Virus record (IMG/VR): IMGVR_UViG_2778261094_000010
Span: 1-48,461 of that record
DNA: 48,461 nucleotides
Reading direction: 5' to 3' (one strand)
From: a virus
Lineage: Duplodnaviria > Heunggongvirae > Uroviricota > Caudoviricetes
A model generated the notes under the pieces. The model did not search any database, was not told where the DNA came from, and was given only the letters and a program-made list of their open reading frames with translations. Numbering within the stretch: the stretch's first letter is position 1; each line of letters begins with the position of its first letter. Shown here piece after piece: positions 18,612-38,350 of the stretch. The position numbers and the translations under genes were made by a program.

Positions 18612-18620
18612 GAATATTTC
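18601..18620. repeat. Left attachment junction (attL-like): exact 7-bp core TTGGTAA at 18605..18611 plus imperfect flanking match
   Basis: TTGGTAAgAAtATT here versus TTGGTAAaAAaATT at 33522..33535; marks the boundary between the terL C-fragment and satellite DNA. Confidence 0.65.
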
Positions 18621-18894
18621 AAGTTTTTTAAAATCACCTGTATATCAATCGTTTAACATGAAAAAACAGTCTTTATAAATCATCAAGCAATACACAGCGC
18701 AATACACGTATCTGTATTGTTTTAATGCTGATACACACCGTTTTTTGATACAGTGATTCGACCTACCATCGCGAAGCATTTTTTATTTCTTGTGTGTAAC
18801 AATCTGACGAGGTGAGCACTCAAAGAGATAAGAGGCAGTAGAAATTTCGATCACCCCCCTGAATGCAATTTTTCGTATATATATACAAAACAGC

Positions 18895-19047
18895 GCGGGT
18901 TATGCGGGTTAGCGGGTTATCTTCGCGTGCTAAGTATTTTTTGCTCTTTAATATCAATGCGTTAAAAAACAACGTATTTAAATATCAGCCAGAATGTAAC
19001 CCGCAAGACATTCAAAATAACCCGCACCCCTCCCTCAAATAACCCGC
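18895..19047. repeat. Iteron cluster B: 3 tandem GCGGGTTA(T/G) repeats, AT-rich spacer, 3 inverted (A)TAACCCGC copies
   Basis: Direct copies at 18895..18920, inverted copies at 18997..19004, 19017..19025 and 19039..19047, preceded by a TATATATATA tract; same repeat unit as the cluster downstream of the replication gene. Confidence 0.7.
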
Positions 19048-19128
19048 AAAAACATCCCTGAAAGTGGGTACCGGTAATACTGAAAATTTATTCCATTAAA
19101 TGAGCATTGTCCTCTCTCATCCATTCCG

Positions 19129-20790
19129 TTACACACCATCAAACGCCGCAAGCCGCTCTTTGTGGCTGTCGCTCATATCGAATGCAAATTCCTCATGCTC
19201 TGCCTGGAATGTGCCAAACGCCATCAGCGCCGCAACGCTCGGGTCTATCTTGTTGGATGATTTTTTCTTGTTCGGCTTGATATTGGCGTTCGCGTCACTC
19301 TGCATCACAACATTACTCATTGACCAGGCCAGCACCGGATCGCCACGATGCACAATCACCTTCCGGTTAACAAAAACTTCGAACGATTTCGCCGCCGGAC
19401 TGAAACGAAGGTATGTTTGCGGGAACGGCTCCACCTCAAATCCTGCCCCCTGTAGCTGCGTCCTCAGGTGCGTGGCGTTCCATGTATCGAAGCCCACCAG
19501 CCTGATATTGAAATTCTCTGCATCCGCCATGATGTCATCACGGATACGGTCATAATCAATGCAGTCACCCGGTGTTGTGCGTATCCAGCCCGCCTTTACC
19601 CACTGGCGATAGATGGCGCGGTTTTTATTGGCGGGGTTCTGTAGCTGAAATTCAGGCAGATAGTGACGGGAAACCAGCATAATCTTTTTACCGACCGGAA
19701 AGGCATAGCACACGCTGGAAATATCGCTGGTTGATGATAAGTCCAGCCCCGCGTAGCACTCCTGCCCGTATAAATCCGCCTCCGCGAACGTTCCGGCGCA
19801 CTCCGCCCATGCACCGTTACCCATCCACGGCGTAGCCCCCTGACACCAGATATTGAATCGCTTGGTGAGCATTTCCACCCACTGCGACGGAATACCCCGC
19901 GCTTTCTGGATGGTTGAGGCCAGTTTTTCACGATCGACGGAAACATCGATATTGGGATTCGCCTTTATCCACATCGCCGGATCGTCAACCTCGCTTTCAT
20001 CATCCAGCTCGTAAATCAGCACGAACATGGATTCGTTCACCTCTTCACCATCCAGTATCTGGCAGCAATAGTCATAGTGTTGTTTACAGGCTGAAACAAC
20101 GTTGCTCCCCGATGTGGTGATGGCAAATAACAGCCCCTCCGGACGCGCCCCCATTCCCAGTTCAAGCGCGGAATAAACCCCGTTGTCAGGGTGCAGGTGA
20201 TATTCATCCACAATGGCAAGGCTCGGGTTTGTACCTTCAATGGTTGCCGCTTTTGCTGCCAGTGGCTTTAACAGGCTGTTGGTTTTCGGGTGTATCACCT
20301 TGTGTGCCTGAATATTTACCCGCTTTCGTAACGGTCGGGATAAAAGGCACATCTGACGCGCATCATCAAACACGATCCGCGCCTGATCACGACTCACGGC
20401 GGCGGTGTAAATATCCTGCTGCCCGTTTTCCATAACCAGAAACCAGTTAGCCAGGATAGCGGCGACCGTGGATTTGGCATTTTTTCGCGGCACTTCAATG
20501 AATGCGCTGGTGTATTTGCGCCGTCCGGTGGCCTTAACCTTAAAGCCCAGGATGCACGCAAAGGCGAACTGCTGCCACGGCTCCAGCTCAATGGGGCTAC
20601 CGCGCATTGCGCCTTTTACGTGCGGACACACCCTGGAAAAGGCAATAAACCGCTCCACGACCTCCGGATCGAACGTGTAAAGGGGGTTTTCAAGGTCAGA
20701 AAAATACCGTTTAACGGCCTGTTTCAGTCGTTTACAGGCCGTAATTTTGCCGTTTTTTACGCCTTCTGCGTACTCATGCCAGGCGGTCAA
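19129..20790 (-). CDS. terL: Satellite terminase large subunit (intact)
   Basis: 553 aa with N-terminal ATPase and C-terminal nuclease domain (AGLDLSSTSD, KIDPSVAALMAF); apparent TTG start at 20788..20790 overlapping the TerS stop, preceded by a GAGGAAGAGGA ribosome-binding site. Confidence 0.9.
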   Translation of the reverse strand: MTAWHEYAEGVKNGKITACKRLKQAVKRYFSDLENPLYTFDPEVVERFIAFSRVCPHVKGAMRGSPIELEPWQQFAFACILGFKVKATGRRKYTSAFIEVPRKNAKSTVAAILANWFLVMENGQQDIYTAAVSRDQARIVFDDARQMCLLSRPLRKRVNIQAHKVIHPKTNSLLKPLAAKAATIEGTNPSLAIVDEYHLHPDNGVYSALELGMGARPEGLLFAITTSGSNVVSACKQHYDYCCQILDGEEVNESMFVLIYELDDESEVDDPAMWIKANPNIDVSVDREKLASTIQKARGIPSQWVEMLTKRFNIWCQGATPWMGNGAWAECAGTFAEADLYGQECYAGLDLSSTSDISSVCYAFPVGKKIMLVSRHYLPEFQLQNPANKNRAIYRQWVKAGWIRTTPGDCIDYDRIRDDIMADAENFNIRLVGFDTWNATHLRTQLQGAGFEVEPFPQTYLRFSPAAKSFEVFVNRKVIVHRGDPVLAWSMSNVVMQSDANANIKPNKKKSSNKIDPSVAALMAFGTFQAEHEEFAFDMSDSHKERLAAFDGV

Positions 20791-21130
20791 GCTCGTCCTC
20801 TTCCTCTGTTTCCGGTGGATTTCTGCGGCGACTTACCGGGTCAAAACCCAGCAAAGAAGCCATTTTGATCATTATTCTTTCAGCGTCAGCCTTTGCGCTC
20901 AGGGCGGGGTTTCTGCTCTCGCTGCCCTGACTGTTAACAATGCTGAACCCGCGCGTGGCAAGGTCTTCGACGGCTTTGCGGTATATGGAGTAGTTAACAC
21001 AATACAGCTCCAGATTGCTCCAGTCGGCGGGGGTAAGGTCTTCCCGTCCGGAAAGCTGGCGCGATTTTTCCTTCCACTGCCTGACCGCGATTTCATCCAG
21101 GTAAGCGGGGGCTTTTGGTGGTCTTGCCAT
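20774..21130 (-). CDS. terS: Satellite terminase small subunit (P27-like family)
   Basis: Translation from MARPPKAPAYLDEIAVRQW resembles P27-family small terminases; start assigned to the ATG at 21130. Confidence 0.8.
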   Translation of the reverse strand: MARPPKAPAYLDEIAVRQWKEKSRQLSGREDLTPADWSNLELYCVNYSIYRKAVEDLATRGFSIVNSQGSESRNPALSAKADAERIMIKMASLLGFDPVSRRRNPPETEEEDELDRLA

Positions 21131-21418
21131 GTTCTTTTTTCGCCCAATTATTTTCAAAAAAATTCCCGTGCACAAAAATTTGAGGAGGCGGTCGGTGTCC
21201 GGCAGGGACGGTTTCGTCCTGAAAACCACCCCCACCCCCTCTGACGGCCTCACCAGCGATTGCGAAAACATTCCATGACCTCGCGGTCACGGTCGGTTAA
21301 TCACTTCGCTGTGGTGCGTTTTGTGCGCCCTGTCCTGTTGGCTTTGTGCCCTGTCTCCTGTGTCTTCCATAAGTCACGCTGCCTTATCAGTCCACGTATC
21401 AGCCTGGTTTGCTCCTGT

Positions 21419-21859
21419 TCAGTCATCATCGCCATACATCCAGTCGTTACGGTGTGCTGCCCGTTCTTCCTGCTCGCGATACATGCCCGCCTTACGGTTC
21501 GCTTTCGTGGCTGGATCTTCCCGTGTCGTCTTACGGTTGTGGCACGTCTGGCACAATGCCTGGTGGTTCCACTCAGGCCAGAAGAGAACATCACCGCCGC
21601 CATTGATGGGGATGATGTGATCCACCACAAGAGCTGGCGTATAAATCCCCTTAGCCAGACAACGCACGCATAACGGGTTTTTGCTCAGGTACAGGGCGCG
21701 GTATTTGTCCCACTGTCGGGAATACCCGCGCGCGCGGCGGTGTCCCCGTCTGGCATCCTCTGCACGCCATGCAGCCCGTCTGTGCTCTTCACACTTGCCG
21801 GACTTCACGCGCTTATTACAGCCCGGCTCAGTGCATCGCCTTAATGGTTGCCACGGCAT
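21419..21859 (-). CDS. HNH endonuclease (terminase-associated)
   Basis: Cys-rich zinc-finger motifs (CNKRVKSGKCEEH, CVRC, CQTCH) and HNH-like His/Asn; located upstream of terS-terL as in HK97-like packaging modules. Confidence 0.85.
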   Translation of the reverse strand: MPWQPLRRCTEPGCNKRVKSGKCEEHRRAAWRAEDARRGHRRARGYSRQWDKYRALYLSKNPLCVRCLAKGIYTPALVVDHIIPINGGGDVLFWPEWNHQALCQTCHNRKTTREDPATKANRKAGMYREQEERAAHRNDWMYGDDD

Positions 21860-22161
21860 CAGTACACCCCCACATCACGATAAACCGACCAGAGCGCAGA
21901 AATAGCCATAGGCAGTTCAGACTGCTCCACTGGTGAAACTGCTTCCCTGTTCTCGTACAGGAAAGCGATGTACATCAGGCAACCAACACGCATTGCCGGG
22001 GTAAATTCCAGCCCGTCTTCAAAACGTTTCCCGATATGCTTCTGGCAGGCTTCCAGCGCCGCATCGGTATACATTTTCAGAAGTTCGCCTTCACCGGATA
22101 AATCATCATCAAGTCGAAGATGTGCCCTGACTTCATCAGGTGTAATTCTGGCTTCACTCAT
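21859..22161 (-). CDS. Satellite head-tail connector protein (gp6-like)
   Basis: Translation from MSEARITPDEVRAHLRLDDDL parallels the helper gp6-like protein (MLLKEEEIKSHLRLDD); GGGAGA ribosome-binding site before the ATG at 22161. Confidence 0.7.
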   Translation of the reverse strand: MSEARITPDEVRAHLRLDDDLSGEGELLKMYTDAALEACQKHIGKRFEDGLEFTPAMRVGCLMYIAFLYENREAVSPVEQSELPMAISALWSVYRDVGVY

Positions 22162-23368
22162 CTTTTCTCCCTTTAATTTCCACAGTCTGTTTCCATGCCT
22201 GGCTGAACTCATCACCACCTTCACGCGGCGGCATACCCTCGCGTTCGCGAGCTTCGTTCGGATTCATGATCCCGCTCTTAATCCCTTTCTCATACGTGGC
22301 ATAACGTTCGGTGGGTGTGGCGCGCAGTAAATCGGCTGAATCAAACTCAACCAGATAACGGGTACCAGGTACGGGAGAAGTCACCAGCAAAGCGGCCTTG
22401 ATTTGCTGTTCGAAGTTCGCCAGCCACGGGCGCATTGTCATGGTCAGAAATGCGCGGCTCGCCTCACTGAAATTGCTGTAGGTGCTGTTGCTGTATTCCT
22501 GAAGAAAAATCGGCGACACGTTGAACATCCTGGCGATGTCTTCAATGGAGAAGCGACGGGAGGCCAGCCATTCCGCATCCTGGTTACTCATCCCCAGCTG
22601 CCTGTAATCCATGCCCCCTTCAAGGATTGGCGTTTTTCCGGCATTTTTCGCCCCCTTGTAGCGTTCCAGTGCGTCTAATGCCTGTTTACCTTTCACGCCG
22701 TCCAGCCATTCACCTGACGTGATAATCCCTGCCGCCATCATGCCATCTTTCATAATGCTGGCTCCGTGACGCTGTTGAGCAAGGCCAAGCCCCAGCGCCT
22801 CACGGCAAATCGTGACGGGGGAACGCCCCAGAAAGCCATCATCCGAGGCATAGCGGAGATGCAGAACTTCTTCCTGTAAATACGTGCGCACCGTTCCTGT
22901 ACAGGGTTCGGTGATGGTATAGCGGTATTTGTGTGTGCCTGTGCGTTCCGGTACAACACACCCCGGCGCATAAGGATGAAGTGATTTTGGCTGCCCGTCC
23001 CGCCCCCACTCAATAACCGCATAGGCGTTACCGTTCAGCAGGCAGTGACGCATCATTGTGCGTTTAAACTGGTAAGGTGTCAGGCACGAATTAGGCTGCT
23101 CATTCAGCAGAATATCTACCGGGTGACTGTCCAGCCATTCCCGCGCCTCTCTGCCCTTATCATTGCGTACCAGATACAGGTAACACGGCATCGTGGCCAC
23201 CGCCTCAGCGATGACAGAAACCGCGTTCATCACAGCAGGCAATGATTCAGCCGTCCCGGCAGAAACATATTCTCCGGATCCGGTATTTGGTACACCAGAC
23301 AACGCCAGAAAATCATCAATGGACAGGTTACGCAGATCGCTTTTTTTACGACTAAAAGGCCACCACAT
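22154..23368 (-). CDS. Satellite portal protein (HK97 family)
   Basis: Portal-like sequence; start assigned to the ATG at 23368 (MWWPFSRKK), one nt after the protease stop. Confidence 0.85.
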   Translation of the reverse strand: MWWPFSRKKSDLRNLSIDDFLALSGVPNTGSGEYVSAGTAESLPAVMNAVSVIAEAVATMPCYLYLVRNDKGREAREWLDSHPVDILLNEQPNSCLTPYQFKRTMMRHCLLNGNAYAVIEWGRDGQPKSLHPYAPGCVVPERTGTHKYRYTITEPCTGTVRTYLQEEVLHLRYASDDGFLGRSPVTICREALGLGLAQQRHGASIMKDGMMAAGIITSGEWLDGVKGKQALDALERYKGAKNAGKTPILEGGMDYRQLGMSNQDAEWLASRRFSIEDIARMFNVSPIFLQEYSNSTYSNFSEASRAFLTMTMRPWLANFEQQIKAALLVTSPVPGTRYLVEFDSADLLRATPTERYATYEKGIKSGIMNPNEAREREGMPPREGGDEFSQAWKQTVEIKGRKDE

Positions 23369-23369
23369 A

Positions 23370-23930
23370 TCACAACCCCGCCAGTTCAGCCCAGCGATGA
23401 CGATTATTTCCTGCCGGGCGTAATTCAGGGTACTGTGCAAACAACGAACGGTGGGCAATCTCCACGCCGGATTCGGGATAAGCAGGCATCGATGTTATCG
23501 TGATTTCACGGAGTTCTGCGGCGGTTACAGTACGCAGATACGGTTTTTGCGCGATATTCCACTCCTCGCATAATGCGCGAAAGCCAAAGCTCATTCCTGT
23601 AATATCGCCACGTTCCACCAGCGTAAGCACATCTTTTCCAAGCTGGGTATTTGGCGGTGTCAGTTCAAAACGTAGCCCGGTGTTATCCTCAGTCAGTACC
23701 AGTGAGCCGGATTTGGTACGCCCCAGCAGTTGGGTATAGTCATGCTCATACAGACAGCGCACATCATTACCCGCCGCCAGATAGTCAGCAAAAGCCCCCG
23801 GCGTGAACTGTTCGCGAAACTCGTCCCAGATAATTTCTGAAAGGCTGTTCCAGCGAACGGCATAACCCACCAGTTTTTTATCGCTGGCGGTCAGTTCAGA
23901 TGTACGGATTTCAAAATCGGTGTTTTTCAT
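23370..23930 (-). CDS. Satellite prohead protease (HK97 family)
   Basis: Translation from MKNTDFEIRTSELTASDKKLVGYAVRWN with conserved His/Ser regions (YEHD, GMSFGF); GGAG ribosome-binding site before the ATG at 23930. Confidence 0.85.
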   Translation of the reverse strand: MKNTDFEIRTSELTASDKKLVGYAVRWNSLSEIIWDEFREQFTPGAFADYLAAGNDVRCLYEHDYTQLLGRTKSGSLVLTEDNTGLRFELTPPNTQLGKDVLTLVERGDITGMSFGFRALCEEWNIAQKPYLRTVTAAELREITITSMPAYPESGVEIAHRSLFAQYPELRPAGNNRHRWAELAGL

Positions 23931-23979
23931 CGGTGTACTCCATAAAGCTGAAAAAGGAGGCCGAAGCCCCCTTTGCTCA

Positions 23980-25125
23980 TTACTTGCCAGCCTGAATTTC
24001 CAGAATCTTGATGGCGTTCGAATCCACCACACCACCGCCCAGATATTTCTGGGTATAGATGTTAATGAATCCAGGCTCGCTGAAATCCGGACGGGTACGC
24101 GTACCGGTTTTATGGTCAACGATGAAATAACCGCGCTTAAAGTCACCGACTGCAATCACACCGTCCGGCATAAATTCCAGATATTCAACCGGAAGCCCCA
24201 GCAGAGAATCAGGATCACCAGCCTGTAAACGATCGCGCCAGATGTAATCACCAGTGGCATTTTTCAGTTTTTGTGCGGAGGCGGCTGTATTTGAGTTCAT
24301 CACCCATACAGCTTTTTTGCGGTACTTATTGCGCAGCGTAAATTTCAGGTCAATCAGCATATCGGCGCTGAGACTGCCAGTCACTTTTTTCGTCTGGAGC
24401 GTACCGAAAGGACGGGTTTTGTCATTATCCGTAGTGCGCGGGAAAGTCAGGAAACCTTTGGCTTTTTTCTCGCCATCACCGGAAACCAGATCCGTTTCTT
24501 CGGTATCAACGAAAGTGTCGCCAATTTCAGAAGATAACCAGCCCATAATATCGACTTCGGAAAAATCGATAATTTCCTGAGTGGTTTTCGGGTAAGCGTA
24601 GATCGGATACAGGCGGATACTGACTTCATTCAGTTTTGGGGTTGCCGTCTGGTTACGTGCCGCACCTTCTTCGCCGTGTCCCACGACCGCACCCCCGGCA
24701 GAAACCAGTTGCTTAAATTCATTACTGTGAATGGTTTTAACAGTACAGATTTTACGCATCACCGACTCATCAGAAAGCTGACGCATAATTTCTCTGTTCA
24801 GTTCCGGGATAACCGTATAACCACCATCAGCCGGAACACTGCCGGACAGGTTGCGGGTTTCCCCGGTCAGAATGTAAGAGCGTAGCTCGTCTTTGGTGAT
24901 TTTATCTTCGACGGGAACACCAGGCTGGTTACGTTCTTCATCAGCCACAGACTCGAGGCGGGAAATTTCTGTGTCGAGGGAATCGGCTTTTGCACGCAGT
25001 TCATCAAACTGTTTGCCCTCGTCATCGGTTAGACTGCGGTTTTCACTGTCGGCTTTTTCCAGCAGGGATCGCATCTGGTTTTTCAGGGCGGTTTTTTGCT
25101 GGCGGAGTTCGATTAATTTCTTCAT
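23980..25125 (-). CDS. Satellite major capsid protein (HK97 fold)
   Basis: 381 aa; N-terminal coiled-coil delta-like domain followed by an HK97 core (ADGGYTVIPEL); homologous in outline to the helper capsid protein but clearly diverged. Confidence 0.9.
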   Translation of the reverse strand: MKKLIELRQQKTALKNQMRSLLEKADSENRSLTDDEGKQFDELRAKADSLDTEISRLESVADEERNQPGVPVEDKITKDELRSYILTGETRNLSGSVPADGGYTVIPELNREIMRQLSDESVMRKICTVKTIHSNEFKQLVSAGGAVVGHGEEGAARNQTATPKLNEVSIRLYPIYAYPKTTQEIIDFSEVDIMGWLSSEIGDTFVDTEETDLVSGDGEKKAKGFLTFPRTTDNDKTRPFGTLQTKKVTGSLSADMLIDLKFTLRNKYRKKAVWVMNSNTAASAQKLKNATGDYIWRDRLQAGDPDSLLGLPVEYLEFMPDGVIAVGDFKRGYFIVDHKTGTRTRPDFSEPGFINIYTQKYLGGGVVDSNAIKILEIQAGK

Positions 25126-25360
25126 GAAGGTTTTCTCGCATTGGTTAAGATTCAGGACGTGAAACCAACACGGGGGGAGCGCCGCCCGACACTCTCGGCA
25201 TCTCGCAGATCAACCCGGCATCGCGCAGGGGGTCAGGCGGCATTGTGGCGGCTCACGTCTGAGTGCCACACGCCAACATATACATAAAAATCAGTATGTA
25301 AACATCAGCCAGAATCACCGAACAACCTGGAACAACCACGAACAAATAATTTACAAAACC

Positions 25361-25396
25361 TGAAAAAAGGCCCGGAAAAAATCCGGGCCTTTATCG
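25361..25396 (-). terminator. Rho-independent terminator (bidirectional hairpin GGCCCGG-N7-CCGGGCC flanked by A and T runs)
   Basis: Perfect 7-bp stem with A6 upstream and T-rich downstream, immediately 3' of the minus-strand gene ending at 25399. Confidence 0.7.
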
Positions 25397-25398
25397 CT

Positions 25399-25647
25399 TT
25401 ATTGTTTCACTGGCTCCCGCATTCTGCGTCTTATTTTCCACAAATATTCGATCATCGCTTCCACCTGCTCACGGTTGGTTGCGAAAATTTCCCCGGTCAG
25501 TGAGCTACGCAGAAAATCATGATGATCCACAAAAAATAACGCATCGGAAGAAAGCAACCGACGATATTTTTTTGCTGTCGTGGTTTCCAGATCATCAAAA
25601 CCATGAAGCTTTTTATGTTGCTGAACTTCTTCAAATGTCACTGGCAT
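25399..25647 (-). CDS. Hypothetical satellite protein
   Basis: 82 aa ORF overlapping the upstream gene end and followed by a terminator; no recognisable motif. Confidence 0.4.
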   Translation of the reverse strand: MPVTFEEVQQHKKLHGFDDLETTTAKKYRRLLSSDALFFVDHHDFLRSSLTGEIFATNREQVEAMIEYLWKIRRRMREPVKQ

Positions 25648-26180
25648 GTATCCCCCTTTGCTGCCCGGCGCTGGCGCTTGTGCTTCTCATTCAGCACCAT
25701 CAGCCGTGTTTCTGCCTCCTGCTGTTCCTGTGGTGTCACTTCCCCACATGGCTGGCCTTTCAGGTCGTAACGTGCGCCACCAGCTATCAGGGCGCGGTAA
25801 TAGCGCGGAGACTGCGCATAGGATGCCAGCGTCGCACGTAATACCCCCGACCCGAATGCCAGCCCCCTGACGGCGATATCCTGCATCAGGTCGTCGAATA
25901 TCCCCACCTTAAGCGGCTTCGGTGCTTTATGGCTGAATAAGTCAGGCCACATCTCAGTGAGGCGGTTAACGCGTCGGCGGTTTTTGCGCTGCCTTTTGGT
26001 CATATGCTGCCACGGTGTCGCCCCTGCGGTCTTCTGTTTGCGGCTCTGCTGTGCGTTCTGATTATCGGGTATCACTTTATGCGCCGATGTGGTTTTATCC
26101 TGCTCTTGCGCCGCCTGCGTCGTTTTCTGCGGCGTGCCGTAAATGCCTTTCGGCTTCCGGTTAATGGTCAGCGTTGTCAT
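25638..26180 (-). CDS. ProQ/FinO-family RNA-binding protein (putative RNA chaperone)
   Basis: Basic N-terminus, then a FinO/ProQ-like core (PLKVGIFDDL...RYDLKG). Confidence 0.55.
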   Translation of the reverse strand: MTTLTINRKPKGIYGTPQKTTQAAQEQDKTTSAHKVIPDNQNAQQSRKQKTAGATPWQHMTKRQRKNRRRVNRLTEMWPDLFSHKAPKPLKVGIFDDLMQDIAVRGLAFGSGVLRATLASYAQSPRYYRALIAGGARYDLKGQPCGEVTPQEQQEAETRLMVLNEKHKRQRRAAKGDTCQ

Positions 26181-26216
26181 GCCTTCCCCCGTAATTACTC
26201 TGTTCGCTGTTGTGAA

Positions 26217-26642
26217 TTAAAACGGTATGTTATCCCCGTACGGGTCATCGTGCTGGCTTGTCTGTTGTTTTGCCCTGTTCAGTGCGTCAGTGGCCTGGCC
26301 CTGTTGACCTTTTTTGCCGCCCGGTCGCGCCGTTCGCGCACTGATTACGCTGTCTGCAATAACCTGCCAGCCCTGCCGCGTTTCCCCGTTCTGGCCTGTC
26401 CACTGGCTCACCTGCATGTTACCCGCCACGCTCACCAGTTCGCCTTTGTGGTGTTTTGCCAGTGCGTCGGCCTGTCTGCCAAACGCCAGGACAGATAACC
26501 ACATCGTCGCCGTTCCGTCATCTGCCTGGCTGCACGGCAGGGGAACCGCCATACTCGCCATCGCCATTTGTGTCCCTTTGCTGGTGGTCTTTAACTGCGG
26601 GTCAGCCACCAGCCGCCCGTAAGCCGCTATCTGTGCTGTCAT
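26217..26642 (-). CDS. ssb: Single-stranded DNA-binding protein (SSB)
   Basis: OB-fold-like N-terminal region, Gly/Gln-rich linker and an acidic C-terminal tail ending DDPYGDNIPF (compare the canonical SSB DDDIPF tail). Confidence 0.7.
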   Translation of the reverse strand: MTAQIAAYGRLVADPQLKTTSKGTQMAMASMAVPLPCSQADDGTATMWLSVLAFGRQADALAKHHKGELVSVAGNMQVSQWTGQNGETRQGWQVIADSVISARTARPGGKKGQQGQATDALNRAKQQTSQHDDPYGDNIPF

Positions 26643-26706
26643 GCTGTCTGTTCTCCGGTTTTAACGTTGATTGTTACGCTTGTTTACACCCTTACGGTGA
26701 AATTCT

Positions 26707-26829
26707 GCGGGTTATAATCGCACTTTTGCGGGTTATAACTGCCGTTTTGCGGGTTACGTGCGGGTTATTGATTTCCTTTTTATTCATACAGTTAATGCAC
26801 TTATACACAGGATAACCCGCATAACCCGC
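26707..26829. repeat. Iteron cluster A (putative satellite replication origin): 4 direct GCGGGTTA(T/C) repeats, AT-rich spacer, 2 inverted ATAACCCGC copies
   Basis: Direct copies at 26707..26715, 26728..26736, 26749..26757 and 26760..26768; inverted copies at 26812..26829; located just downstream of the replication protein gene. Confidence 0.7.
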
Positions 26830-26852
26830 AACTTTTTACATCACACAGGGGG

Positions 26853-28976
26853 TTAATCTTCTGCCTCAGGCTGGAACATCAGCACGTAAAAAACATGCTG
26901 CTTCCCCCCAATTTTGCTGAGCGCCTTTTTCTTGTAACGGCGGTCGTTCCCCTTTTCCAGCATCCCCGCCGCATCAAGCGCTCTTGCAAAATGCGACGGG
27001 TTAAATCCCTGTGCGATCTCACCTTCAAACACATGCGGGAACGTGTAAAAACGGAACTCGTCATCTTCGTTTCTGATACTCCCCTTTCTGTATCCGGCAA
27101 GTTCTTTAATCGGTAAATCACGCTCGTCGGTGTTGGGCCACGGAAGGTATCTGCTGAATCCGAACGACGCTAAAAAAGCCTCTGCCTGTTCAACCATCTG
27201 TTTAAATTCCCTGTTACCCGTGCCGAACTCCTTCACCCAGGCATTAAAATTATGCTGTATGGCATCGCGGCACGCCTGAACATCCCAGCCAGTAATATGA
27301 CCGGACAACACTAACGCCGCCTCAAGCATGGCAAATCGCTCCCCCACACGGTGAACCTGTTCGCCGTAGCTCTCCGGTATCAGGTTGCGCCACCGTTCAC
27401 GGCATGCCCTTACCGTGTCCTTTGCTTCCTGCTGGTGGTTTGCCAGCCATTTAACCCACTCTCGACCCGCCGCCCCGTGATTTTCTGTCCAGGCATCCTT
27501 TAACGCGTCTGCGTGCGCCTTTCCGGTGCTGTATTCGTGAAACTGCGTGGCTTTTTCCATCGGCACGTTAAGCAGGCGGACAAGCTGCCCCGCCTTGACT
27601 TTTATCCCCTCCGTTTTGAGGAATGTTTCAACGTCCATTTCTCCGGTGCTGATTGCCACCGTGCGCCAGTGTTTGATCTCCCTGTTGCCGCCGTCCTTCG
27701 CCCCCTGTAATTTCCCCGAACCGTTAAACAGCGTATAGGCTGACGTGGACACCTCCCGCGCGTTTCCGGCCTGACCTATTTCATCCAGGGGTAACAGCCC
27801 ATCATTATGTGCTTCGGCCTCGTTGGCGATACCTAACGCCGTGCCGTACCAGGTCAGCCGTTGTGCGTCCGGCTCTCCCCATAAACTGGATGCGATGTTC
27901 TGTGTGGTGGTTTTCCCTGCCGATGACTGTTCGAAAAGATGTACCCCGAAGCCGTCAGCCCCCACCAGCCCGATTAATGGTGCGGATAACGATACCGCCA
28001 CACCCAGCATCATGGACGGATTACCACCAGCCAGCCGCGCCACGGTATCGCGCCAACCCTCCGCCGTTCCTGCCACGGAATAGCCATTAACAGCAGCCGT
28101 TTTTCCGGTAAACAGGGCTGGCTTTTCGCAATCACCAATGACCGAACCGTCCGGCATGATGTACGCGCCAAAATGCCAGCCCGTTGTTGTGCTTAACTGC
28201 CATTCCTCATGGCTTCCGCTTAACTGCATCCAGTCAGCCAGGATAGCCCTGTATTTGCCGTTAGTTGTTACGTTCAGTCCGTGGTCTTTCAGCAGCCGCC
28301 AGCCGTCACGGTCGCCAATGCCACCGCACGGAACCGCCATTGTGATGACTTCATGGTTTGCTAATTTTTTCCAGCGCATCACGCGGTAATGCTCTTTACC
28401 GATTGTCCCCGTTCCCAGTAGTTCAAGCGGGGAACATAACCACGTCTCAGGCCGGATAATTTCGCCTGACTGCTTATCCACTTTTGGCGTTACCCAGAAA
28501 ACACCATCGGCGCGACTTTCAACGCGGGGCTTTAATTCATCATCGCCCTGGCTTTCTGTAATTTTTTTCTTTAAAGGCAACACCAGACTTTCCCCGCGCT
28601 CGTATTCGTCTTTGAGGCGAGGCAACTGGTCGGATAAATCCGCCGGGCTGGTGTCAGTTATACCCGCGTATTCGTATACGGTCTTCACGCCAGCCACAGC
28701 CAGCAACGTGACGATCTGTGTAAGGCTACGTTCAGTGATGTGCCCTGCGCGGTAAACACGCACACACTGACGGCTATCATCAATAATTTGATAACCGGTA
28801 ATATCTTTCAGGTGTTCATCTGACAGAACGACAGGTGGCACATTGTCGGCGGCAATATGCTTACCTGCCCATTCCTGCCACTCTTTCGCATGGCTCCACG
28901 CATCACTACCCGCAAAGATGATAACCTCCGTCATTTTGTCGGCTGGCTGGTGCTTTAAGTTTGGTGCGCGCTTCAT
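26853..28976 (-). CDS. Replication protein, DUF927-type primase/helicase (P4 alpha-like or PICI Rep-like) with Walker A motif
   Basis: 707 aa; Walker A-like SSAGKTT within a DUF927-like helicase core; adjacent iteron cluster; ATGA-type overlap with the upstream ORF. Confidence 0.75.
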   Translation of the reverse strand: MKRAPNLKHQPADKMTEVIIFAGSDAWSHAKEWQEWAGKHIAADNVPPVVLSDEHLKDITGYQIIDDSRQCVRVYRAGHITERSLTQIVTLLAVAGVKTVYEYAGITDTSPADLSDQLPRLKDEYERGESLVLPLKKKITESQGDDELKPRVESRADGVFWVTPKVDKQSGEIIRPETWLCSPLELLGTGTIGKEHYRVMRWKKLANHEVITMAVPCGGIGDRDGWRLLKDHGLNVTTNGKYRAILADWMQLSGSHEEWQLSTTTGWHFGAYIMPDGSVIGDCEKPALFTGKTAAVNGYSVAGTAEGWRDTVARLAGGNPSMMLGVAVSLSAPLIGLVGADGFGVHLFEQSSAGKTTTQNIASSLWGEPDAQRLTWYGTALGIANEAEAHNDGLLPLDEIGQAGNAREVSTSAYTLFNGSGKLQGAKDGGNREIKHWRTVAISTGEMDVETFLKTEGIKVKAGQLVRLLNVPMEKATQFHEYSTGKAHADALKDAWTENHGAAGREWVKWLANHQQEAKDTVRACRERWRNLIPESYGEQVHRVGERFAMLEAALVLSGHITGWDVQACRDAIQHNFNAWVKEFGTGNREFKQMVEQAEAFLASFGFSRYLPWPNTDERDLPIKELAGYRKGSIRNEDDEFRFYTFPHVFEGEIAQGFNPSHFARALDAAGMLEKGNDRRYKKKALSKIGGKQHVFYVLMFQPEAED

Positions 28977-29287
28977 TTTGCCTTTCCCCGTTCACGAATA
29001 ATTTCACGTACTGCCTTAATGCGTTCCATTCCTGTAACGCGCATGATTCTGTCGATGTCGCTTAATTCTGCTGGTGGTGCTTTGCTTACCAGGGGGAACT
29101 CCCTTTCAAAGCGCATATGCGACGACACGCAGGGATGCGCATAACCTTCGCGGATATAGGTCACGCGAAAATCATCGACGGTTTTAATCGTTATCGTGCT
29201 GCCGTATTTATCCCGGAAAATATCGCCGGGGCGGATTTCAGGCCGAGCGTGACCGCTGGCAGTAAAGCCAGAATTTTTCTTTTTCAT
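28973..29287 (-). CDS. Hypothetical satellite protein
   Basis: Start assigned to the ATG at 29287 (MKKKNSGF); translationally coupled to the replication gene. Confidence 0.4.
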   Translation of the reverse strand: MKKKNSGFTASGHARPEIRPGDIFRDKYGSTITIKTVDDFRVTYIREGYAHPCVSSHMRFEREFPLVSKAPPAELSDIDRIMRVTGMERIKAVREIIRERGKAK

Positions 29288-29294
29288 GTTTTTT

Positions 29295-29543
29295 TTACTC
29301 CAGAGGCAGCTTTTTAGCGGCGAGCTCAATATCAGATGTCAGAGAAACCTGTGTATTTGCCAGGTCTAACAACAAAGAAATAAGAATTTCTTCTCTGCTA
29401 TCGGATTTATCGGTGCTAAGGCTGTTCATCCACATATTGACGACTTCCCTGATTTTTTTCGCAGAGTGCAGGGCTTCAAATGCCAGGCCTTCAATATCAT
29501 GTTTATTTCGCATAATCGCCCCCGCCATTTTCACAATCAGCAA
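29295..29543 (-). CDS. Hypothetical satellite protein
   Basis: 82 aa ORF in the early operon; no recognisable motif. Confidence 0.35.
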   Translation of the reverse strand: MLIVKMAGAIMRNKHDIEGLAFEALHSAKKIREVVNMWMNSLSTDKSDSREEILISLLLDLANTQVSLTSDIELAAKKLPLE

Positions 29544-29748
29544 TCAGGATGGCTTTTGCCTCATTCAGCGCCATATCAGCACTAAATTGCATAAGAGCCA
29601 GTGAGTGAGGAACGAAAGCCCCGGTATATTCTGTTTCGCTGGTGGCGTGCTTATGCGCCTTGTCTGCGATAACAGAAATATCAATCAGCGCGTGCATCAG
29701 CGTTTTGATGGCTTCGGCGGCTGCGTCCGGTGTGGTTTTATTATGCAT
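29503..29748 (-). CDS. Hypothetical satellite protein
   Basis: 81 aa ORF in the early operon; no recognisable motif. Confidence 0.35.
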   Translation of the reverse strand: MHNKTTPDAAAEAIKTLMHALIDISVIADKAHKHATSETEYTGAFVPHSLALMQFSADMALNEAKAILIADCENGGGDYAK

Positions 29749-29944
29749 AGGTTTCCCCCTGGCGAATACGGGCGGCGAATACCATCACGCAGCCATCAGG
29801 AGATTGCTGACGCGCTTCCTGTTCGCTGGTGGCCTCAATGGTAATCACGCGCGGTTGTGCCGTGCTCAGGGCGATAAAACGCCAGATGTATTTATTCAGG
29901 TTGTACGAGTCCCGCCCTTGCGGGTGTCTGGTATAATTTCTCAT
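29741..29944 (-). CDS. Hypothetical small protein, first gene of the minus-strand early operon
   Basis: 67-codon ORF (MRNYTRHPQGRDSYNL...) with a GAGG ribosome-binding site, transcribed divergently from the operator region. The listed 349-aa ORF is treated as a read-through artefact. Confidence 0.4.
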   Translation of the reverse strand: MRNYTRHPQGRDSYNLNKYIWRFIALSTAQPRVITIEATSEQEARQQSPDGCVMVFAARIRQGETYA

Positions 29945-30041
29945 AGCTACCTCGATACGCTTTCTATCGTTGGTGGTTAGAAGCCCGGTTAGTGTTAGCG
30001 CACTGCCGGGTTTCGTCGTTTCTGCACCTTGCATCAGTAAG

Positions 30042-30093
30042 GTGTTGAACACCAATTTAAGCCCTGGTGTTAAACACGTCAAGTGTTGAACAC
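30042..30093. promoter_or_regulatory. Operator-like triple palindrome GTGTT(G/A)AACAC in a divergent promoter region
   Basis: Near-palindromic 11-mers at 30042..30052, 30067..30077 and 30083..30093, between the minus-strand early operon and the plus-strand small regulator gene. Confidence 0.6.
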
Positions 30094-30143
30094 TTATTTT
30101 TTTTCCTGCATACTGCATTTGTTTTTTGTAAGGGGTACACAAC

Positions 30144-30323
30144 ATGGCAACAAAAGCAGTAAACGCAAAATCACAAACAGTTGCGGCAAGGGTTCCGCAT
30201 GAAGTTATGAACAATGTTGAGGCGGTAAAAATGCCTGGTGAAAGTACAGGGCAGTTTGTAACAGCAGCATTAAAGCGAGAAGTTGAATACCGCCAGCGTC
30301 GCAAGGCCAAAGAGCAGGAATAA
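30144..30323 (+). CDS. Small putative DNA-binding regulator (59 aa)
   Basis: ATG at 30144 preceded by an AAGGGG ribosome-binding site, immediately downstream of the operator palindromes; small basic protein with a KREVEYRQRRKAKEQE tail. Confidence 0.5.
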   Translation: MATKAVNAKSQTVAARVPHEVMNNVEAVKMPGESTGQFVTAALKREVEYRQRRKAKEQE

Positions 30324-30380
30324 CCATCACCAGCGCCGTGGTGTAAGGTATTACGGCGCATTGCTATGCAGGACAACACA

Positions 30381-30554
30381 ATGACCGATAAAGAATTGAC
30401 CAAAACATTATCACCGACACGGAAAAGACGGCGCAGAAAGATAGAGCATGAATCAGAAAGATTCGCACCTTGTTCGTTTGCTCTTGAGAAATTCCTTAAA
30501 GAGCGCAGGAAAAAACTCTCGTTGCAAACCTTGGAACGAACCAAATCTGACTGA
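30381..30554 (+). CDS. Hypothetical small basic protein
   Basis: 57-codon ORF (MTDKELTKTLSPTRKRRRRK...) with an AGGA ribosome-binding site, followed by tandem terminators. Confidence 0.3.
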   Translation: MTDKELTKTLSPTRKRRRRKIEHESERFAPCSFALEKFLKERRKKLSLQTLERTKSD

Positions 30555-30620
30555 TCACATTGCCCACCAGCCGCAAATGTGGCATTGTTGGTGATGCTTT
30601 TGTTTTCCCTTGTTCCCACT

Positions 30621-30650
30621 GGCGACCCTTTTGCGGTCGCCTTTGTTTTG
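30621..30650 (+). terminator. Rho-independent terminator (GGCGACC-CTTTTGC-GGTCGCC followed by TTTGTTTTG)
   Basis: Perfect 7-bp stem followed by a T tract, downstream of the plus-strand small ORFs. Confidence 0.7.
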
Positions 30651-30745
30651 CCTGTTATCCTGCAACTATGGTCATTTCGACCACGGTTGATATAATCCCC
30701 CCGCACAGATTCATTTTTTGCGCAGTAGGTTAATTGTTCGCAAGG

Positions 30746-30780
30746 GCGCTCCGGTAACGGGGCGCTTTTTGTTTTTACCC
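30746..30780 (+). terminator. Rho-independent terminator (8-bp stem with GTAA tetraloop followed by TTTTTGTTTTT)
   Basis: GCGCTCCG-GTAA-CGGGGCGC hairpin (one G-U pair) followed by a T-rich run; second of two tandem terminators. Confidence 0.65.
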
Positions 30781-30934
30781 ACCAGCACAATAAAAATCTT
30801 CATTTTCCATTTTTGTAAAATTTCATGCTTTCCGGACGACTGGTAATATGTCATTTTTTAGCAGAAGATTTTGCCTTGCTGGTGGGTAGCTTCCCGGTCA
30901 ACACGATGTACCGTATAATCAACACCGCGTGTGG

Positions 30935-31531
30935 TTACTGAATACGCTCACCAAAGTAAAACTCAGGCTGGTATTCACGTATCAGCCTTTTTTCTTCTTC
31001 CTCCAGTTCACGCTTTTTGCGCTTACATGCCTGTAGCTCCCTCCCCTTCTCGCTGGCACTTATCTGGTATTGCTCTTTGCGGCGGGAAAAATCCTGTAAT
31101 GCTCCCCACGGGATACCATAAGCCCCCGTTTTTCTGATACCCGGTATCACATTTCTGAATACCCAATTACTGAAACGATGGGCGAACGTGCCAGGATTAA
31201 CAGCTTTGCGACTTCTGGCGATCAACTTGTAAAAACCTGATTCTGATACAACATTCCAACTTCTGGCACCACCACGCTTACCTGAATGACCCTCGGTTAA
31301 AGCTAGGGTCATTACCTCATCGCTATCCAGAACTGAAACAGCATCGGTAACGTTGCTAATTTCCAGCGCCGCACACACATCAGCGCCAACAAACCACGGA
31401 TCGCCGTTCAGATACACCACGCGAACGTTCACACTATCAAAGCGCAGAACGACCAGATCACGAATATCACAGAATTTTTTCACATGACGTGCGTCACCCT
31501 TGCCCGTCGCGGCAATATTTTTATTCATCAC
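30935..31531 (-). CDS. Bro-N domain protein (antirepressor-like)
   Basis: Bro-N signature (FDSVNVRVVYLNGDPWFVGADVCAALEI...SGFYKLIARSRK) with a Lys/Glu-rich coiled C-terminus. Confidence 0.7.
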   Translation of the reverse strand: MMNKNIAATGKGDARHVKKFCDIRDLVVLRFDSVNVRVVYLNGDPWFVGADVCAALEISNVTDAVSVLDSDEVMTLALTEGHSGKRGGARSWNVVSESGFYKLIARSRKAVNPGTFAHRFSNWVFRNVIPGIRKTGAYGIPWGALQDFSRRKEQYQISASEKGRELQACKRKKRELEEEEKRLIREYQPEFYFGERIQ

Positions 31532-31585
31532 TTTCTACCTCACATACAAAAAACCCCGCATTGCGTGGTGCGGGGTTGTCGGTAA

Positions 31586-31864
31586 TTACTTATTGGCGTT
31601 TTTGTATGGGCTGTTTACTTCCTTTACTCCTGGCGGATGCATAACCCACCAGAGCACATCAGAGAGCAACCAGGAAACAGACACTTTCCCTAAATGAGCA
31701 CGAGCAGGAAATGCTCCCTCCTGTTCAAGTACCCAACGTCTGCTTCTTGAAAGCCCGGTACGATTGGCACACTCATGTTCGCGTATACGGCGATCATACG
31801 GTTCGCCATGTTCTTTCAGAATCTGAATGCGTTCTTCGGGTGTAGGATAAATAAATTTTTGCAT
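31586..31864 (-). CDS. AlpA-like helix-turn-helix regulator (second copy)
   Basis: Translation from MQKFIYPTPEERIQILKEHGE with an AlpA-type C-terminal helix-turn-helix (TGLSRSRRWVLEQEGAFPARAHLGKVSVSWLLSDVLWW). Confidence 0.5.
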   Translation of the reverse strand: MQKFIYPTPEERIQILKEHGEPYDRRIREHECANRTGLSRSRRWVLEQEGAFPARAHLGKVSVSWLLSDVLWWVMHPPGVKEVNSPYKNANK

Positions 31865-31927
31865 AAAAATATCACCTATAAAAAAACCCGCCAAAAGACG
31901 GGTTGATTATATCTCATTTAATTTAGT

Positions 31928-32161
31928 TCAGGGTTTCCATTCACCCTTTACCCATTCCAGCACCTCAGATAAGCGCCAGACTTTTGTTTGTGGGCCAATA
32001 CATATTTTCCGTGGAAATTTTCCTTCCTTTTCAAGTAATGCTCTGTGTCTCCTGCCAAGAGCTGTTAACCATGCACATTCATCTTCCTTAATCATCCTGT
32101 CGATTGTTTTATCATTTTCAAGTTCTTCACGCGTAACTATTTCAATCATTACCGTCACCAC
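31928..32161 (-). CDS. alpA: AlpA-family transcriptional regulator / excisionase-like protein
   Basis: 77 aa with AlpA-like helix-turn-helix (LTALGRRHRALLEKEGKFPRKICIGPQTKVWRLSEVLEWV); immediately downstream of and overlapping the integrase gene. Confidence 0.75.
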   Translation of the reverse strand: MVTVMIEIVTREELENDKTIDRMIKEDECAWLTALGRRHRALLEKEGKFPRKICIGPQTKVWRLSEVLEWVKGEWKP

Positions 32162-36300: not shown

Positions 36301-36301
36301 C

Positions 36302-38253: not shown

Positions 38254-38266
38254 AGGGTACAGATAA

Positions 38267-38343: not shown

Positions 38344-38350
38344 TATGTGA

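What the first reader, a model, noticed from the sequence alone, without database searches (positions are those of the whole stretch)
25638..26180. Satellite-encoded ProQ/FinO-family RNA-binding protein
A FinO/ProQ-like domain protein is encoded in the satellite's replication operon next to the SSB gene. RNA chaperones of this family control antisense-RNA systems, so it could take part in satellite-helper RNA-level regulation.
Basis: partly seen in the sequence, partly recalled or inferred. Interest (0 to 1): 0.4.

Follow-up and report, generated by a model that had tools for sequence, protein, structure and literature searches.

The report
FinO-type RNA-binding gene on phage satellite
The ORF is a real, intact FinO/ProQ-family RNA-binding protein gene. 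It is optional cargo in the early (replication) operon of a capsid-forming phage satellite of E. coli. This makes it a new, uncharacterised member of a known protein family, with a testable antisense-RNA partner nearby.

Summary
Window 25638-26180 (-) encodes a 180-aa protein with a ProQ/FinO domain (Pfam PF04352, E 8.5e-24). The AlphaFold model superposes on FinO, RocC and NMB1681, and the essential RNA-binding residues are conserved. Its layout is FinO-like: a disordered basic N-terminus, the domain, a C-terminal helix and no ProQ Tudor domain.

The gene lies between ssb and an 82-aa ORF, at the end of the icd-primase-ori-ssb operon of a ~14.9-kb capsid-forming PICI. That island is itself inserted in terL of a phiP27-like prophage.

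Homologues occur in 1095 of 5426 complete E. coli genomes, always on the chromosome, and evolve under purifying selection (dN/dS ~0.27). The gene is optional, however. Near-identical islands carry a PerC regulator, or nothing, in the same slot.

The island also encodes a covariation-supported, SymR-like two-hairpin antisense RNA opposite the ribosome-binding site of the first operon gene, plus a second small-RNA unit. Both are plausible ligands, but both also occur in islands without the protein.

The best reading is a FinOP-like, optional RNA chaperone that tunes the satellite's early operon. A trans-acting role on host or helper RNAs is nearly as likely. It is a new member of a known kind, of moderate interest.

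The parts
25638..26180 (-). Gene for the 180-aa FinO-type (ProQ/FinO family) protein
   Evidence: ORF. Pfam PF04352 at 8.5e-24. PDB sequence hits. Homologues have median dN/dS 0.27 and 89 of 97 copies are intact.
25656..25997 (-). FinO domain plus C-terminal helix (aa 62-175). Pocket residues are G93, R115, Y127 and R137.
   Evidence: AF2 pLDDT is 87-96 over this stretch. Foldseek gives FinO 1dvo at rmsd 1.9 A over 102 columns, plus RocC, NMB1681 and Lpp1663. The residues align to Ec ProQ G37/R58/Y70/R80 and are near-invariant in 28 homologues. Their role is described in PMC10168233.
26010..26180 (-). Disordered, basic N-terminal extension (aa 1-57) with a conserved MTxLTINRKPKG motif and a KRQRKNRRR run
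   Evidence: pLDDT is below 50. The region is conserved in the family with dN/dS 0.25. The LTxxRK..G..TP motif aligns with the N-terminus of F-plasmid-type FinO.
26217..26642 (-). Single-strand DNA-binding protein gene, 36 nt upstream of the FinO-type gene
   Evidence: Pfam PF00436 at 4e-16.
26703..26831 (.). Satellite origin: iterons TGCGGGTTAT (four direct, two inverted) around an AT-rich core
   Evidence: the repeat finder; sequence.
26853..28976 (-). DUF927 primase/helicase (replication initiator of the island)
   Evidence: Pfam PF06048 at 1.4e-45.
25399..25647 (-). 82-aa ORF of unknown function. Its ATG overlaps the stop of the FinO-type gene (ATGCCAGTGA), so the two are probably translationally coupled. 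It is present in all capsid-forming relatives.
   Evidence: ORF; sequence; PHROG 1957 at 4e-36, function unknown; presence in relatives.
25363..25392 (-). Strong intrinsic terminator (GGCCCGG/CCGGGCC stem plus U6) that ends the early operon
   Evidence: Sequence. Fold -21.9 kcal/mol, z -3.8. Conserved in 19 loci.
29741..29944 (-). First gene of the early operon: 67-aa Icd-like protein (PHROG 'transcriptional repressor')
   Evidence: PHROG 6196 at 2.3e-41. RefSeq names the homologue 'Icd-like'.
29945..30026 (+). Candidate antisense RNA 'asRNA1'. It has two stem-loops plus a U-rich tail and is complementary to the Shine-Dalgarno sequence and 5' UTR of the icd-like gene. Its promoter is the extended -10 TGGTATAAT at 29929-37.
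   Evidence: MFE -35.1, z -4.84. In 41 distinct homologues 98.6% of cells are paired, with 32 compensatory cells against 8.0+-2.3 in shuffles (0 of 500) and 3 or fewer when slid. Weak SymR match at 32.8 bits, below the cut-off of 61. Length differences of 1-2 nt among homologues show the stretch is not coding.
30703..30779 (+). Candidate small RNA 'sRNA2'. It has an extended -10 TGATATAAT (30688-96), a -35 TGGTCA (30669-74), a conserved single-stranded core GCAGUAGGUUAAUUGUUC and an intrinsic terminator at 30742-69.
   Evidence: Best promoter match in the island (10 of 12, with TG) and top terminator. The -10, core and hairpin are kept in 46 distinct variants from 94 of 152 loci, with two hairpin types differing on both arms. 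Fold z -3.2.
18605..33528 (-). The whole ~14.9-kb capsid-forming PICI, bounded by a 7-bp core TTACCAA and inserted in the terL gene of a phiP27-like prophage
   Evidence: Split TerL: ATPase part at 33356-34549, nuclease part at 17875-18600. Junction peptides and core. Flank is 95% identical to phage phiP27.

Best explanation
The gene encodes a functional FinO-type RNA chaperone carried as optional cargo at the 3' end of the early operon of a capsid-forming PICI. The operon order is icd-like, DUF4222, primase, ori, ssb, this gene, orf82, terminator.

Shown here: the fold, the conserved terminator-binding pocket (G93, R115, Y127, R137), the FinO-like architecture, purifying selection and the operon position.

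Inferred: like every studied FinO-domain protein, it grips the base of an intrinsic-terminator hairpin and its 3' U-tail.

My preferred mechanism is a FinOP-like feedback loop inside the satellite. Once the early operon is transcribed, the protein accumulates and binds the island's own two-hairpin antisense RNA (asRNA1, 29945-30026 +), and perhaps sRNA2. It stabilises that RNA and speeds its pairing with the Shine-Dalgarno region and 5' UTR of the icd-like first gene. This damps translation of the icd-primase operon, limiting Icd toxicity and untimely replication. Islands without the gene would rely on the RNA alone or on host ProQ, in the same way that finO-defective F plasmids keep FinP.
For: Family, fold and pocket: (PMC10168233 reports that R58, Y70 and R80 are essential in ProQ).

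FinO-like architecture: a shared N-terminal motif, 35% identity over the domain and no other Pfam domain.

Selection on both halves: dN/dS 0.25-0.27.

Operon position, overlap with orf82 and terminator.

asRNA1: a conserved extended -10, two hairpins with z -4.84, compensatory changes far above the controls, and complementarity to the icd ribosome-binding site.

sRNA2: promoter and terminator conserved in 94 of 152 loci.

Precedent from the review PMC9977716: the element-encoded FinO and FopA each act on an antisense RNA of their own plasmid, controlling conjugative transfer and replication respectively.

In Vibrio satellite-plasmids a ProQ/FinO-like gene is likewise listed with the replication and maintenance genes parA and repA (PMC13230959).
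Against: No link between protein and RNA was found beyond shared residence. asRNA1 and sRNA2 are equally present in islands that lack the gene. The variant of the asRNA1 terminator hairpin does not track presence of the gene. Related ProQ/FinO genes in CP4-type islands have no asRNA1.

The slot is alternatively filled by PerC, a regulator known for acting on host genes, or left empty in near-identical satellites. So the protein is dispensable for the satellite life cycle.

Host ProQ is available in E. coli (established knowledge). There are no expression or binding data.
Confidence: 0.38

Rival explanations
1. The protein is cargo that acts in trans. It would be a minimal ProQ mimic or competitor that binds the 3' ends of host or helper-phage RNAs. 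That would re-programme host physiology or interfere with phages, rather than regulate the satellite itself.
For: The gene sits in a variable accessory slot that alternates with PerC, a regulator family known for acting on chromosomal virulence genes, or is empty. In classical PICIs it borders the accessory region, which there holds large genes without Pfam matches. It occurs without asRNA1 in CP4-type islands. Up to 9 copies occur per genome. FinO-domain proteins can be promiscuous, as ProQ and NMB1681 are (PMC9977716).
Against: No target can be named. PADLOC gives no match to a known defence system. The FinO-like N-terminus and small size resemble the specialised plasmid proteins more than global ProQ. 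Nothing resembling asRNA1 exists in the flanking prophage.
Confidence: 0.3
2. The protein protects its own message. It would bind the strong terminator hairpin at the end of the early operon (25363-25392) and shield the primase-ssb mRNA from 3' exonucleases. This would be positive autoregulation, as ProQ does for many mRNA 3' ends.
For: A canonical GC-rich hairpin plus U6 lies 7 nt after the stop of orf82. ProQ is known to protect mRNA 3' ends (PMC12086684 abstract).
Against: The same terminator is kept in islands that lack the gene. Classical PICIs with the gene have a different downstream organisation.
Confidence: 0.12
3. The protein is a replication accessory. It would work with SSB on structured single-stranded DNA at the origin, rather than on RNA.
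For: Adjacency to ssb and the iteron origin in many islands.
Against: Fourteen sampled classical islands carry the gene; seven of them have no ssb beside it. Thirty-one sampled classical islands, plus ten of the capsid-forming ones with the same primase at 97-99% identity, replicate without it. The RNA 3'-end pocket is conserved. No studied family member has a DNA role.
Confidence: 0.05
4. The gene is a decaying, non-functional hitch-hiker.
For: Copies in CP4-type islands are often frameshifted. The gene is dispensable.
Against: Median dN/dS is 0.27 over 1266 pairs, and 89 of 97 PICI copies are intact. The start, Shine-Dalgarno sequence and overlap with orf82 are preserved.
Confidence: 0.04

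Closest known systems
FinO of F-like plasmids (FinOP fertility inhibition; PDB 1dvo)
   Same: Best structural match: rmsd 1.9 A over 102 columns. Identity is 35% over the domain. The size is similar (180 against 186 aa) and the layout is the same, including an alignable N-terminal LTxxRK..G..TP motif. The gene is encoded at the distal end of a long operon whose first gene faces a two-hairpin antisense RNA.
   Different: The carrier is a chromosomal phage satellite, not a conjugative plasmid. There were no plasmid hits among 1565 places in E. coli genomes, and plasmids carry only FinO itself at about 34% identity. The candidate RNA is unrelated to FinP, and its dependence on the protein is not shown.
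FopA (pCol1B9), a plasmid FinO-domain protein that controls replication through an antisense RNA
   Same: A FinO-domain protein encoded by a mobile element and associated with the replication module. [quoted passage not shown]
   Different: No antisense RNA was found next to the primase or origin here; the candidate RNAs lie 3.7-4.5 kb upstream, at the head of the operon.
Chromosomal ProQ of E. coli (PDB 5nb9)
   Same: The best sequence match among solved structures, at 7.7e-12. The pocket residues G37, R58, Y70 and R80 are all kept.
   Different: There is no linker or C-terminal Tudor-like domain; Pfam finds PF04352 only. A basic N-terminal extension is present instead, and the gene is accessory rather than core.
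Minimal ProQ NMB1681 (Neisseria) and RocC (Legionella)
   Same: The same fold at TM 0.6-0.84 when normalised to the target. These are small FinO-domain proteins.
   Different: They are chromosomal, with global or competence regulons. Identity is 24-31%.
ProQ/FinO-like genes already noted in satellites (Enterobacter cloacae PICI AVS0889; Vibrio cf-PISP satellite-plasmids)
   Same: The same kind of observation: a ProQ/FinO-like gene listed among accessory or maintenance genes of PICI-type satellites (PMC13612085; PMC13230959).
   Different: Those papers only list the gene. They give no structure, distribution, slot analysis or RNA partner. Homology of those genes to this one was not tested.

Membership tests
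ProQ/FinO family (Pfam PF04352) | Profile match above the curated threshold | tested here: met
   84.1 bits against a cut-off of 27, E 8.5e-24, nearly the full profile.
ProQ/FinO family (Pfam PF04352) | FinO-domain fold | tested here: met
   AF2 model with pLDDT 87-96 over aa 62-175. Foldseek probability is 1.00 to 1dvo, 7rgt/7rgu, 3mw6 and 6s10.
ProQ/FinO family (Pfam PF04352) | Conserved concave-face pocket (Ec ProQ G37, R58, Y70, R80) that holds the terminator base and 3' end | tested here: met
   G93, R115, Y127 and R137 align to these residues and are at least 90% conserved in 28 homologues. Their role is described in PMC10168233.
ProQ/FinO family (Pfam PF04352) | Binds structured RNA or intrinsic terminators | not testable with these tools
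   Requires EMSA, CLIP or a bacterial three-hybrid assay.
FinO-type specialised chaperone (FinOP-like system) | N-terminal basic extension plus FinO domain plus C-terminal helix, with no Tudor domain | tested here: met
FinO-type specialised chaperone (FinOP-like system) | A cognate two-hairpin cis-antisense RNA opposite the 5' UTR and ribosome-binding site of a regulatory first gene of the same element | tested here: inconclusive
   Such an RNA is predicted with covariation support. However, it also occurs in islands without the protein, and its variants do not track the protein.
FinO-type specialised chaperone (FinOP-like system) | Encoded on a conjugative plasmid and controlling transfer genes | tested here: not met
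   All 1565 E. coli places are chromosomal. The carrier is a PICI.
Enterobacterial ProQ proper | Linker and C-terminal Tudor-like domain; core chromosomal gene | tested here: not met
   The protein is 180 aa and ends after the FinO-domain helix. No second Pfam domain was found. The gene is accessory and located on an island.
Capsid-forming PICI (the carrier element) | int, alpA, primase/rep plus ori, own capsid, protease, portal, connector, HNH and TerS/TerL; no tail or lysis genes; about 15 kb | tested here: met
   Size is 14.9 kb between the TTACCAA cores. A near-identical island lies between allC and allE in strain E200086.
SymR antitoxin RNA (Rfam RF01809), for asRNA1 | Score at or above the gathering threshold | tested here: not met
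   32.8 bits against 61. Only the architecture and the loop of the second hairpin resemble SymR.

The most novel reading that the evidence does not exclude
Phage satellites of enterobacteria would carry an optional 'fertility-inhibition' module analogous to FinOP. A satellite-encoded FinO-type chaperone would work with a SymR-like antisense RNA that masks the ribosome-binding site of the first gene of the icd-primase operon. Together they would set how readily the satellite replicates and is mobilised. Presence or absence of the chaperone (ProQ, PerC or empty slot) would then be a natural dial of satellite inducibility.
Probability: 0.25. Interest if true: 0.6.

Novelty: new member of a known kind. 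Interest (0 to 1): 0.4.

Why it matters
Regulation of Gram-negative PICIs is described almost wholly at the level of proteins such as AlpA. No RNA-level control or RNA chaperone has been characterised for them in the literature I could search.

This gene family sits in about a fifth of complete E. coli genomes. It is annotated there only by family name and has never been studied.

If the protein partners with the island's antisense RNA, it extends the FinOP logic of plasmids to phage satellites and gives a handle on satellite induction and transfer. If it acts on host or helper RNAs, it is a mobile modulator of the ProQ regulon in pathogenic E. coli. Either outcome can be tested with standard CLIP and deletion experiments.

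Tried and rejected
1. The genome-contig scan with the single protein returned one locus only, so the species-level survey was lost. IMG/VR loci were used instead.

2. I looked for a P1 C4 / P4 CI-type immunity RNA upstream of icd. There was no Rfam hit, only a sub-threshold SymR match.

3. I tested whether asRNA1 and sRNA2 are tied to the protein. They are not: both occur in ProQ-less islands, and the hairpin type of asRNA1 is independent of the gene.

4. I ran a covariance model of asRNA1 against the window and other loci. The only extra hit, in the prophage at 36237-36306, is a generic bidirectional terminator that matches the second hairpin only. There was no hit in the CP4-type islands.

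5. I searched the window for trans targets of the conserved sRNA2 core and found none.

6. PADLOC gave no match for the protein, orf82 or SSB.

7. RNAalifold on sRNA2 gave a poor consensus, because the two terminator types align out of register. The hairpins were therefore compared by eye only.

8. An exact-repeat search for att sites failed. The 7-bp core was found by reading the split TerL frame.

9. I considered a longer Icd-like ORF, as RefSeq annotates. I rejected it because homologues differ by 1-2 nt in that stretch.

Full report
OBSERVATION. The finding's coordinates are exact. A 180-aa ATG-to-TGA ORF lies at 25638-26180 on the - strand, with a GGAAGG ribosome-binding site 4 nt upstream. 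It matches Pfam PF04352 (ProQ/FinO) at E 8.5e-24, with 84.1 bits against a cut-off of 27, across nearly the whole profile. No other Pfam domain is found. By sequence it hits all solved FinO-domain proteins: ProQ NTD at 7.7e-12, FinO at 6.4e-11, NMB1681, Lpp1663 and RocC. This is far beyond chance.

THE PROTEIN. An AlphaFold2 model built on 28 homologues is disordered over aa 1-57. It is confident (pLDDT 87-96) over aa 62-175: helices at 62-77, 94-105, 111-122 and 125-133, a beta-hairpin at 136-147 and a long C-terminal helix at 150-175. Foldseek against the PDB returns only FinO-domain structures at the top. FinO 1dvo comes first (rmsd 1.9 A over 102 columns), followed by RocC with and without its terminator RNA, NMB1681 and Lpp1663.

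In E. coli ProQ, R58, Y70 and R80 are essential for binding all tested RNAs and G37 is universally conserved (PMC10168233). These residues align to R115, Y127, R137 and G93 here. All four are at least 90% conserved in the family alignment.

The architecture is FinO-like rather than ProQ-like. There is no linker or Tudor domain. There is a basic N-terminal extension containing KRQRKNRRR. The N-terminal motif MTxLTINRKPKG..GTP aligns with PVLTLKRKTEG..ETP of plasmid FinO. Both halves evolve under purifying selection, with median dN/dS of 0.25 for aa 1-60 and 0.26 for the rest. Of 97 copies in the fetched loci, 89 are intact.

CONTEXT. All genes of the region are on the - strand. From 33.4 to 19.1 kb they run as follows:
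- integrase
- two AlpA-family genes
- a Bro-N gene
- a roughly 1-kb stretch whose + strand carries a YlcI/YnfO-like gene and a 62-aa ORF
- an Icd-like gene
- two small ORFs
- DUF4222
- DUF927 primase/helicase
- an iteron origin
- SSB
- the FinO-type gene
- an 82-aa ORF whose ATG overlaps the FinO-type stop codon
- a strong intrinsic terminator
- capsid, prohead protease, portal, head-tail connector, HNH, TerS and TerL
. There are no tail or lysis genes.

This is the gene set of a capsid-forming PICI. A near-identical island lies between allC and allE in E. coli E200086, where RefSeq already calls the gene 'ProQ/FINO family protein'.

In this window the 14.9-kb island is inserted inside the terL gene of a phiP27-like myovirus prophage. 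The TerL ATPase half is at 33356-34549 and the nuclease half at 17875-18600. The reading frame is interrupted between ...SARVNF and LTKHMNVWV..., at a 7-bp core TTACCAA present at both ends.

DISTRIBUTION. Homologous DNA is present in 1095 of 5426 complete E. coli genomes, at 1565 places with up to 9 per genome. All places are chromosomal and none is on a plasmid. Plasmids carry only FinO itself at about 34% identity, apart from three closer records. Of 50,697 phage records only five have a relative, all below 41% identity. In a library of 1.84 billion representatives only 7 proteins reach E below 1e-30, so the full-length subfamily is narrow.

Sampled contexts were of three kinds: capsid-forming PICIs, classical PICIs (int, alpA, ant/bro, icd, DUF4222, primase, with or without ssb, then ProQ, then PerC or large accessory genes), and CP4-type islands where the copy is often frameshifted.

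THE GENE IS OPTIONAL. I sampled islands by their DUF4222 gene, a choice that does not depend on ProQ, and scored the 76 with enough sequence downstream of the primase (a few are overlapping stretches of one contig).
- Capsid-forming islands: 11 have ssb-ProQ-orf82, 12 have ssb-PerC-orf82 and 2 have ssb-orf82.
- Classical islands: 14 have ProQ-PerC, 6 have PerC only and 31 have neither.

In the ProQ-less capsid-forming islands the flanks are 90-99% identical to the window. The 543-bp gene is precisely replaced by a 97-aa PerC gene (PF06069, 120.8 bits) or by 4-9 bp. The gene is therefore cargo in a variable slot of the early operon, not a core replication function.

CANDIDATE RNA PARTNERS. FinO-domain proteins recognise intrinsic-terminator hairpins with their 3' tails (PMC9977716; PMC10168233). 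The island offers four such elements.

(a) asRNA1, at 29945-30026 on the + strand. A perfect extended -10 (TGGTATAAT, 29929-37) sits inside the first codons of the icd-like gene. The predicted RNA starts one base from the icd ATG and is complementary to its Shine-Dalgarno sequence (CGAGGUAGCU) and 5' UTR. It folds into two stem-loops plus a U-rich tail, with MFE -35.1 kcal/mol and z -4.84. In 41 distinct homologues 98.6% of pair cells are standard pairs. There are 32 compensatory cells, against 8.0+-2.3 in shuffles (0 of 500) and 3 or fewer in slid controls. Four pairs of the second hairpin change on both sides. Length differences of 1-2 nt exclude coding. Rfam gives a full-length but sub-threshold SymR match at 32.8 bits against 61. 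The layout, with a two-hairpin RNA of about 80 nt opposite the ribosome-binding site of the first gene, is that of FinP/traJ and SymR/symE (established knowledge).

(b) sRNA2, at 30703-30779 on the + strand. It has the best promoter match in the island (TGGTCA, 16 nt, TATAAT with TG) and the top-scoring terminator. The -10, a single-stranded core GCAGUAGGUUAAUUGUUC and the hairpin are kept in 46 distinct variants from 94 of 152 loci. The two hairpin types differ on both arms.

(c) The terminator of the + strand ylcI-orf62 unit, at 30621-30650.

(d) The early-operon terminator, at 25363-25392.

TESTS OF THE LINK. These were negative or neutral. asRNA1 and sRNA2 are present in most ProQ-less islands. 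The asRNA1 hairpin variant does not track the gene. CP4-type islands with a ProQ-like gene have no asRNA1. The operon terminator is kept without the gene. A covariance model of asRNA1 found nothing homologous in the flanking prophage, only a generic terminator. No trans site for the sRNA2 core exists in the window. PADLOC has no match.

MECHANISM. RNA binding at terminator hairpins is strongly implied by fold and pocket; I put that at about 0.9. For the biological role I commit, at about 0.38, to a FinOP-like optional feedback loop. The protein, made from the distal end of the early operon, would stabilise asRNA1 (and perhaps sRNA2) and speed its pairing with the icd 5' UTR, damping icd-primase expression. 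Lack of strict co-occurrence is compatible with this, because finO-defective F plasmids keep FinP (established knowledge) and host ProQ could substitute. It removes positive support, however.

The main rival, at about 0.30, is a trans-acting cargo regulator, a minimal ProQ mimic acting on host or helper RNAs. The shared slot with PerC and the gene's dispensability favour it. Minor rivals are protection of its own mRNA 3' end (0.12), a DNA or replication role (0.05) and decay (0.04).

COMPARISON AND NOVELTY. The protein meets every testable criterion of the ProQ/FinO family. It is not ProQ proper, because it has no C-terminal domain. It is not FinO, because it is 35% identical and not plasmid-borne. 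RefSeq already annotates the gene by family name in over a thousand genomes. Two 2026 papers list a ProQ/FinO-like gene among the genes of PICI-type satellites without further analysis (PMC13612085, PMC13230959). The family is known to live on plasmids and phages.

I therefore rate it a new member of a known kind. What is new here is the FinO-type architecture, the scale of its distribution, its status as a swappable slot occupant (ProQ, PerC or empty), and a covariation-supported antisense RNA at the head of the same operon that makes a FinOP-like hypothesis directly testable. Interest is moderate, at 0.4.

Noticed in passing
window 18605-18611 and 33522-33528; split terL at 17875-18600 and 33356-34549: The 14.9-kb capsid-forming PICI is integrated inside the large-terminase gene of a phiP27-like prophage, at a 7-bp core TTACCAA. 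This splits TerL between its ATPase and nuclease domains. The same integrase (100% identical) occurs in IMG/VR contigs of 28-54 kb, so this target seems recurrent. Excision would be needed to restore the prophage's packaging enzyme.
   Followed up: partly
window 29945-30026 (+), promoter 29929-29937: A conserved two-hairpin antisense RNA lies opposite the ribosome-binding site and 5' UTR of the Icd-like first gene of the PICI early operon. It has strong covariation support (32 compensatory cells against 8 expected) and a weak SymR resemblance. The region is present in 1323 of 5426 E. coli genomes. I found no description of it in the searchable literature.
   Followed up: yes
window 30669-30779 (+): A second small transcription unit lies between bro and the ylcI-like gene. 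It has an extended -10 promoter, a conserved single-stranded core GCAGUAGGUUAAUUGUUC and an intrinsic terminator. It is conserved in 94 of 152 related loci. No target was found.
   Followed up: partly
window 30037-30058 and 30078-30099: Two copies of a palindrome GTGTT-G-AACAC flank the divergent promoters of the icd operon (- strand, TTGACG..TAAATT at 30082-30054) and of the ylcI/ynfO-like gene (+ strand). They look like operator sites of the island's master switch.
   Followed up: no
L086 13113-13406; compare window 25638-26216: In near-identical capsid-forming PICIs the slot between ssb and orf82 holds a PerC-family transcriptional activator (PF06069) instead of the ProQ/FinO gene, or is empty. 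Classical PICIs often carry ProQ followed by PerC.
   Followed up: yes
window 44438-44613 (-): A full-length sok antitoxin RNA match (Rfam RF01794, 120 bits), indicating a hok/sok-type type I toxin-antitoxin locus, lies in the prophage part of the window.
   Followed up: no
window 38180-38426 (-): Three tandem tRNA genes lie in the phiP27-like prophage (Rfam tRNA scores 54-72 bits).
   Followed up: no
window 25399-25647 (-): An 82-aa ORF (PHROG 1957, function unknown) is present in every capsid-forming relative, immediately before the early-operon terminator. It is translationally coupled to whatever occupies the slot upstream.
   Followed up: partly
L154 10564-17356; L155 10565-17912: In common classical PICIs the ProQ/FinO gene is followed by three large ORFs (about 840, 600-690 and 820-920 aa) with no Pfam match. 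They may be a defence-type cargo.
   Followed up: no
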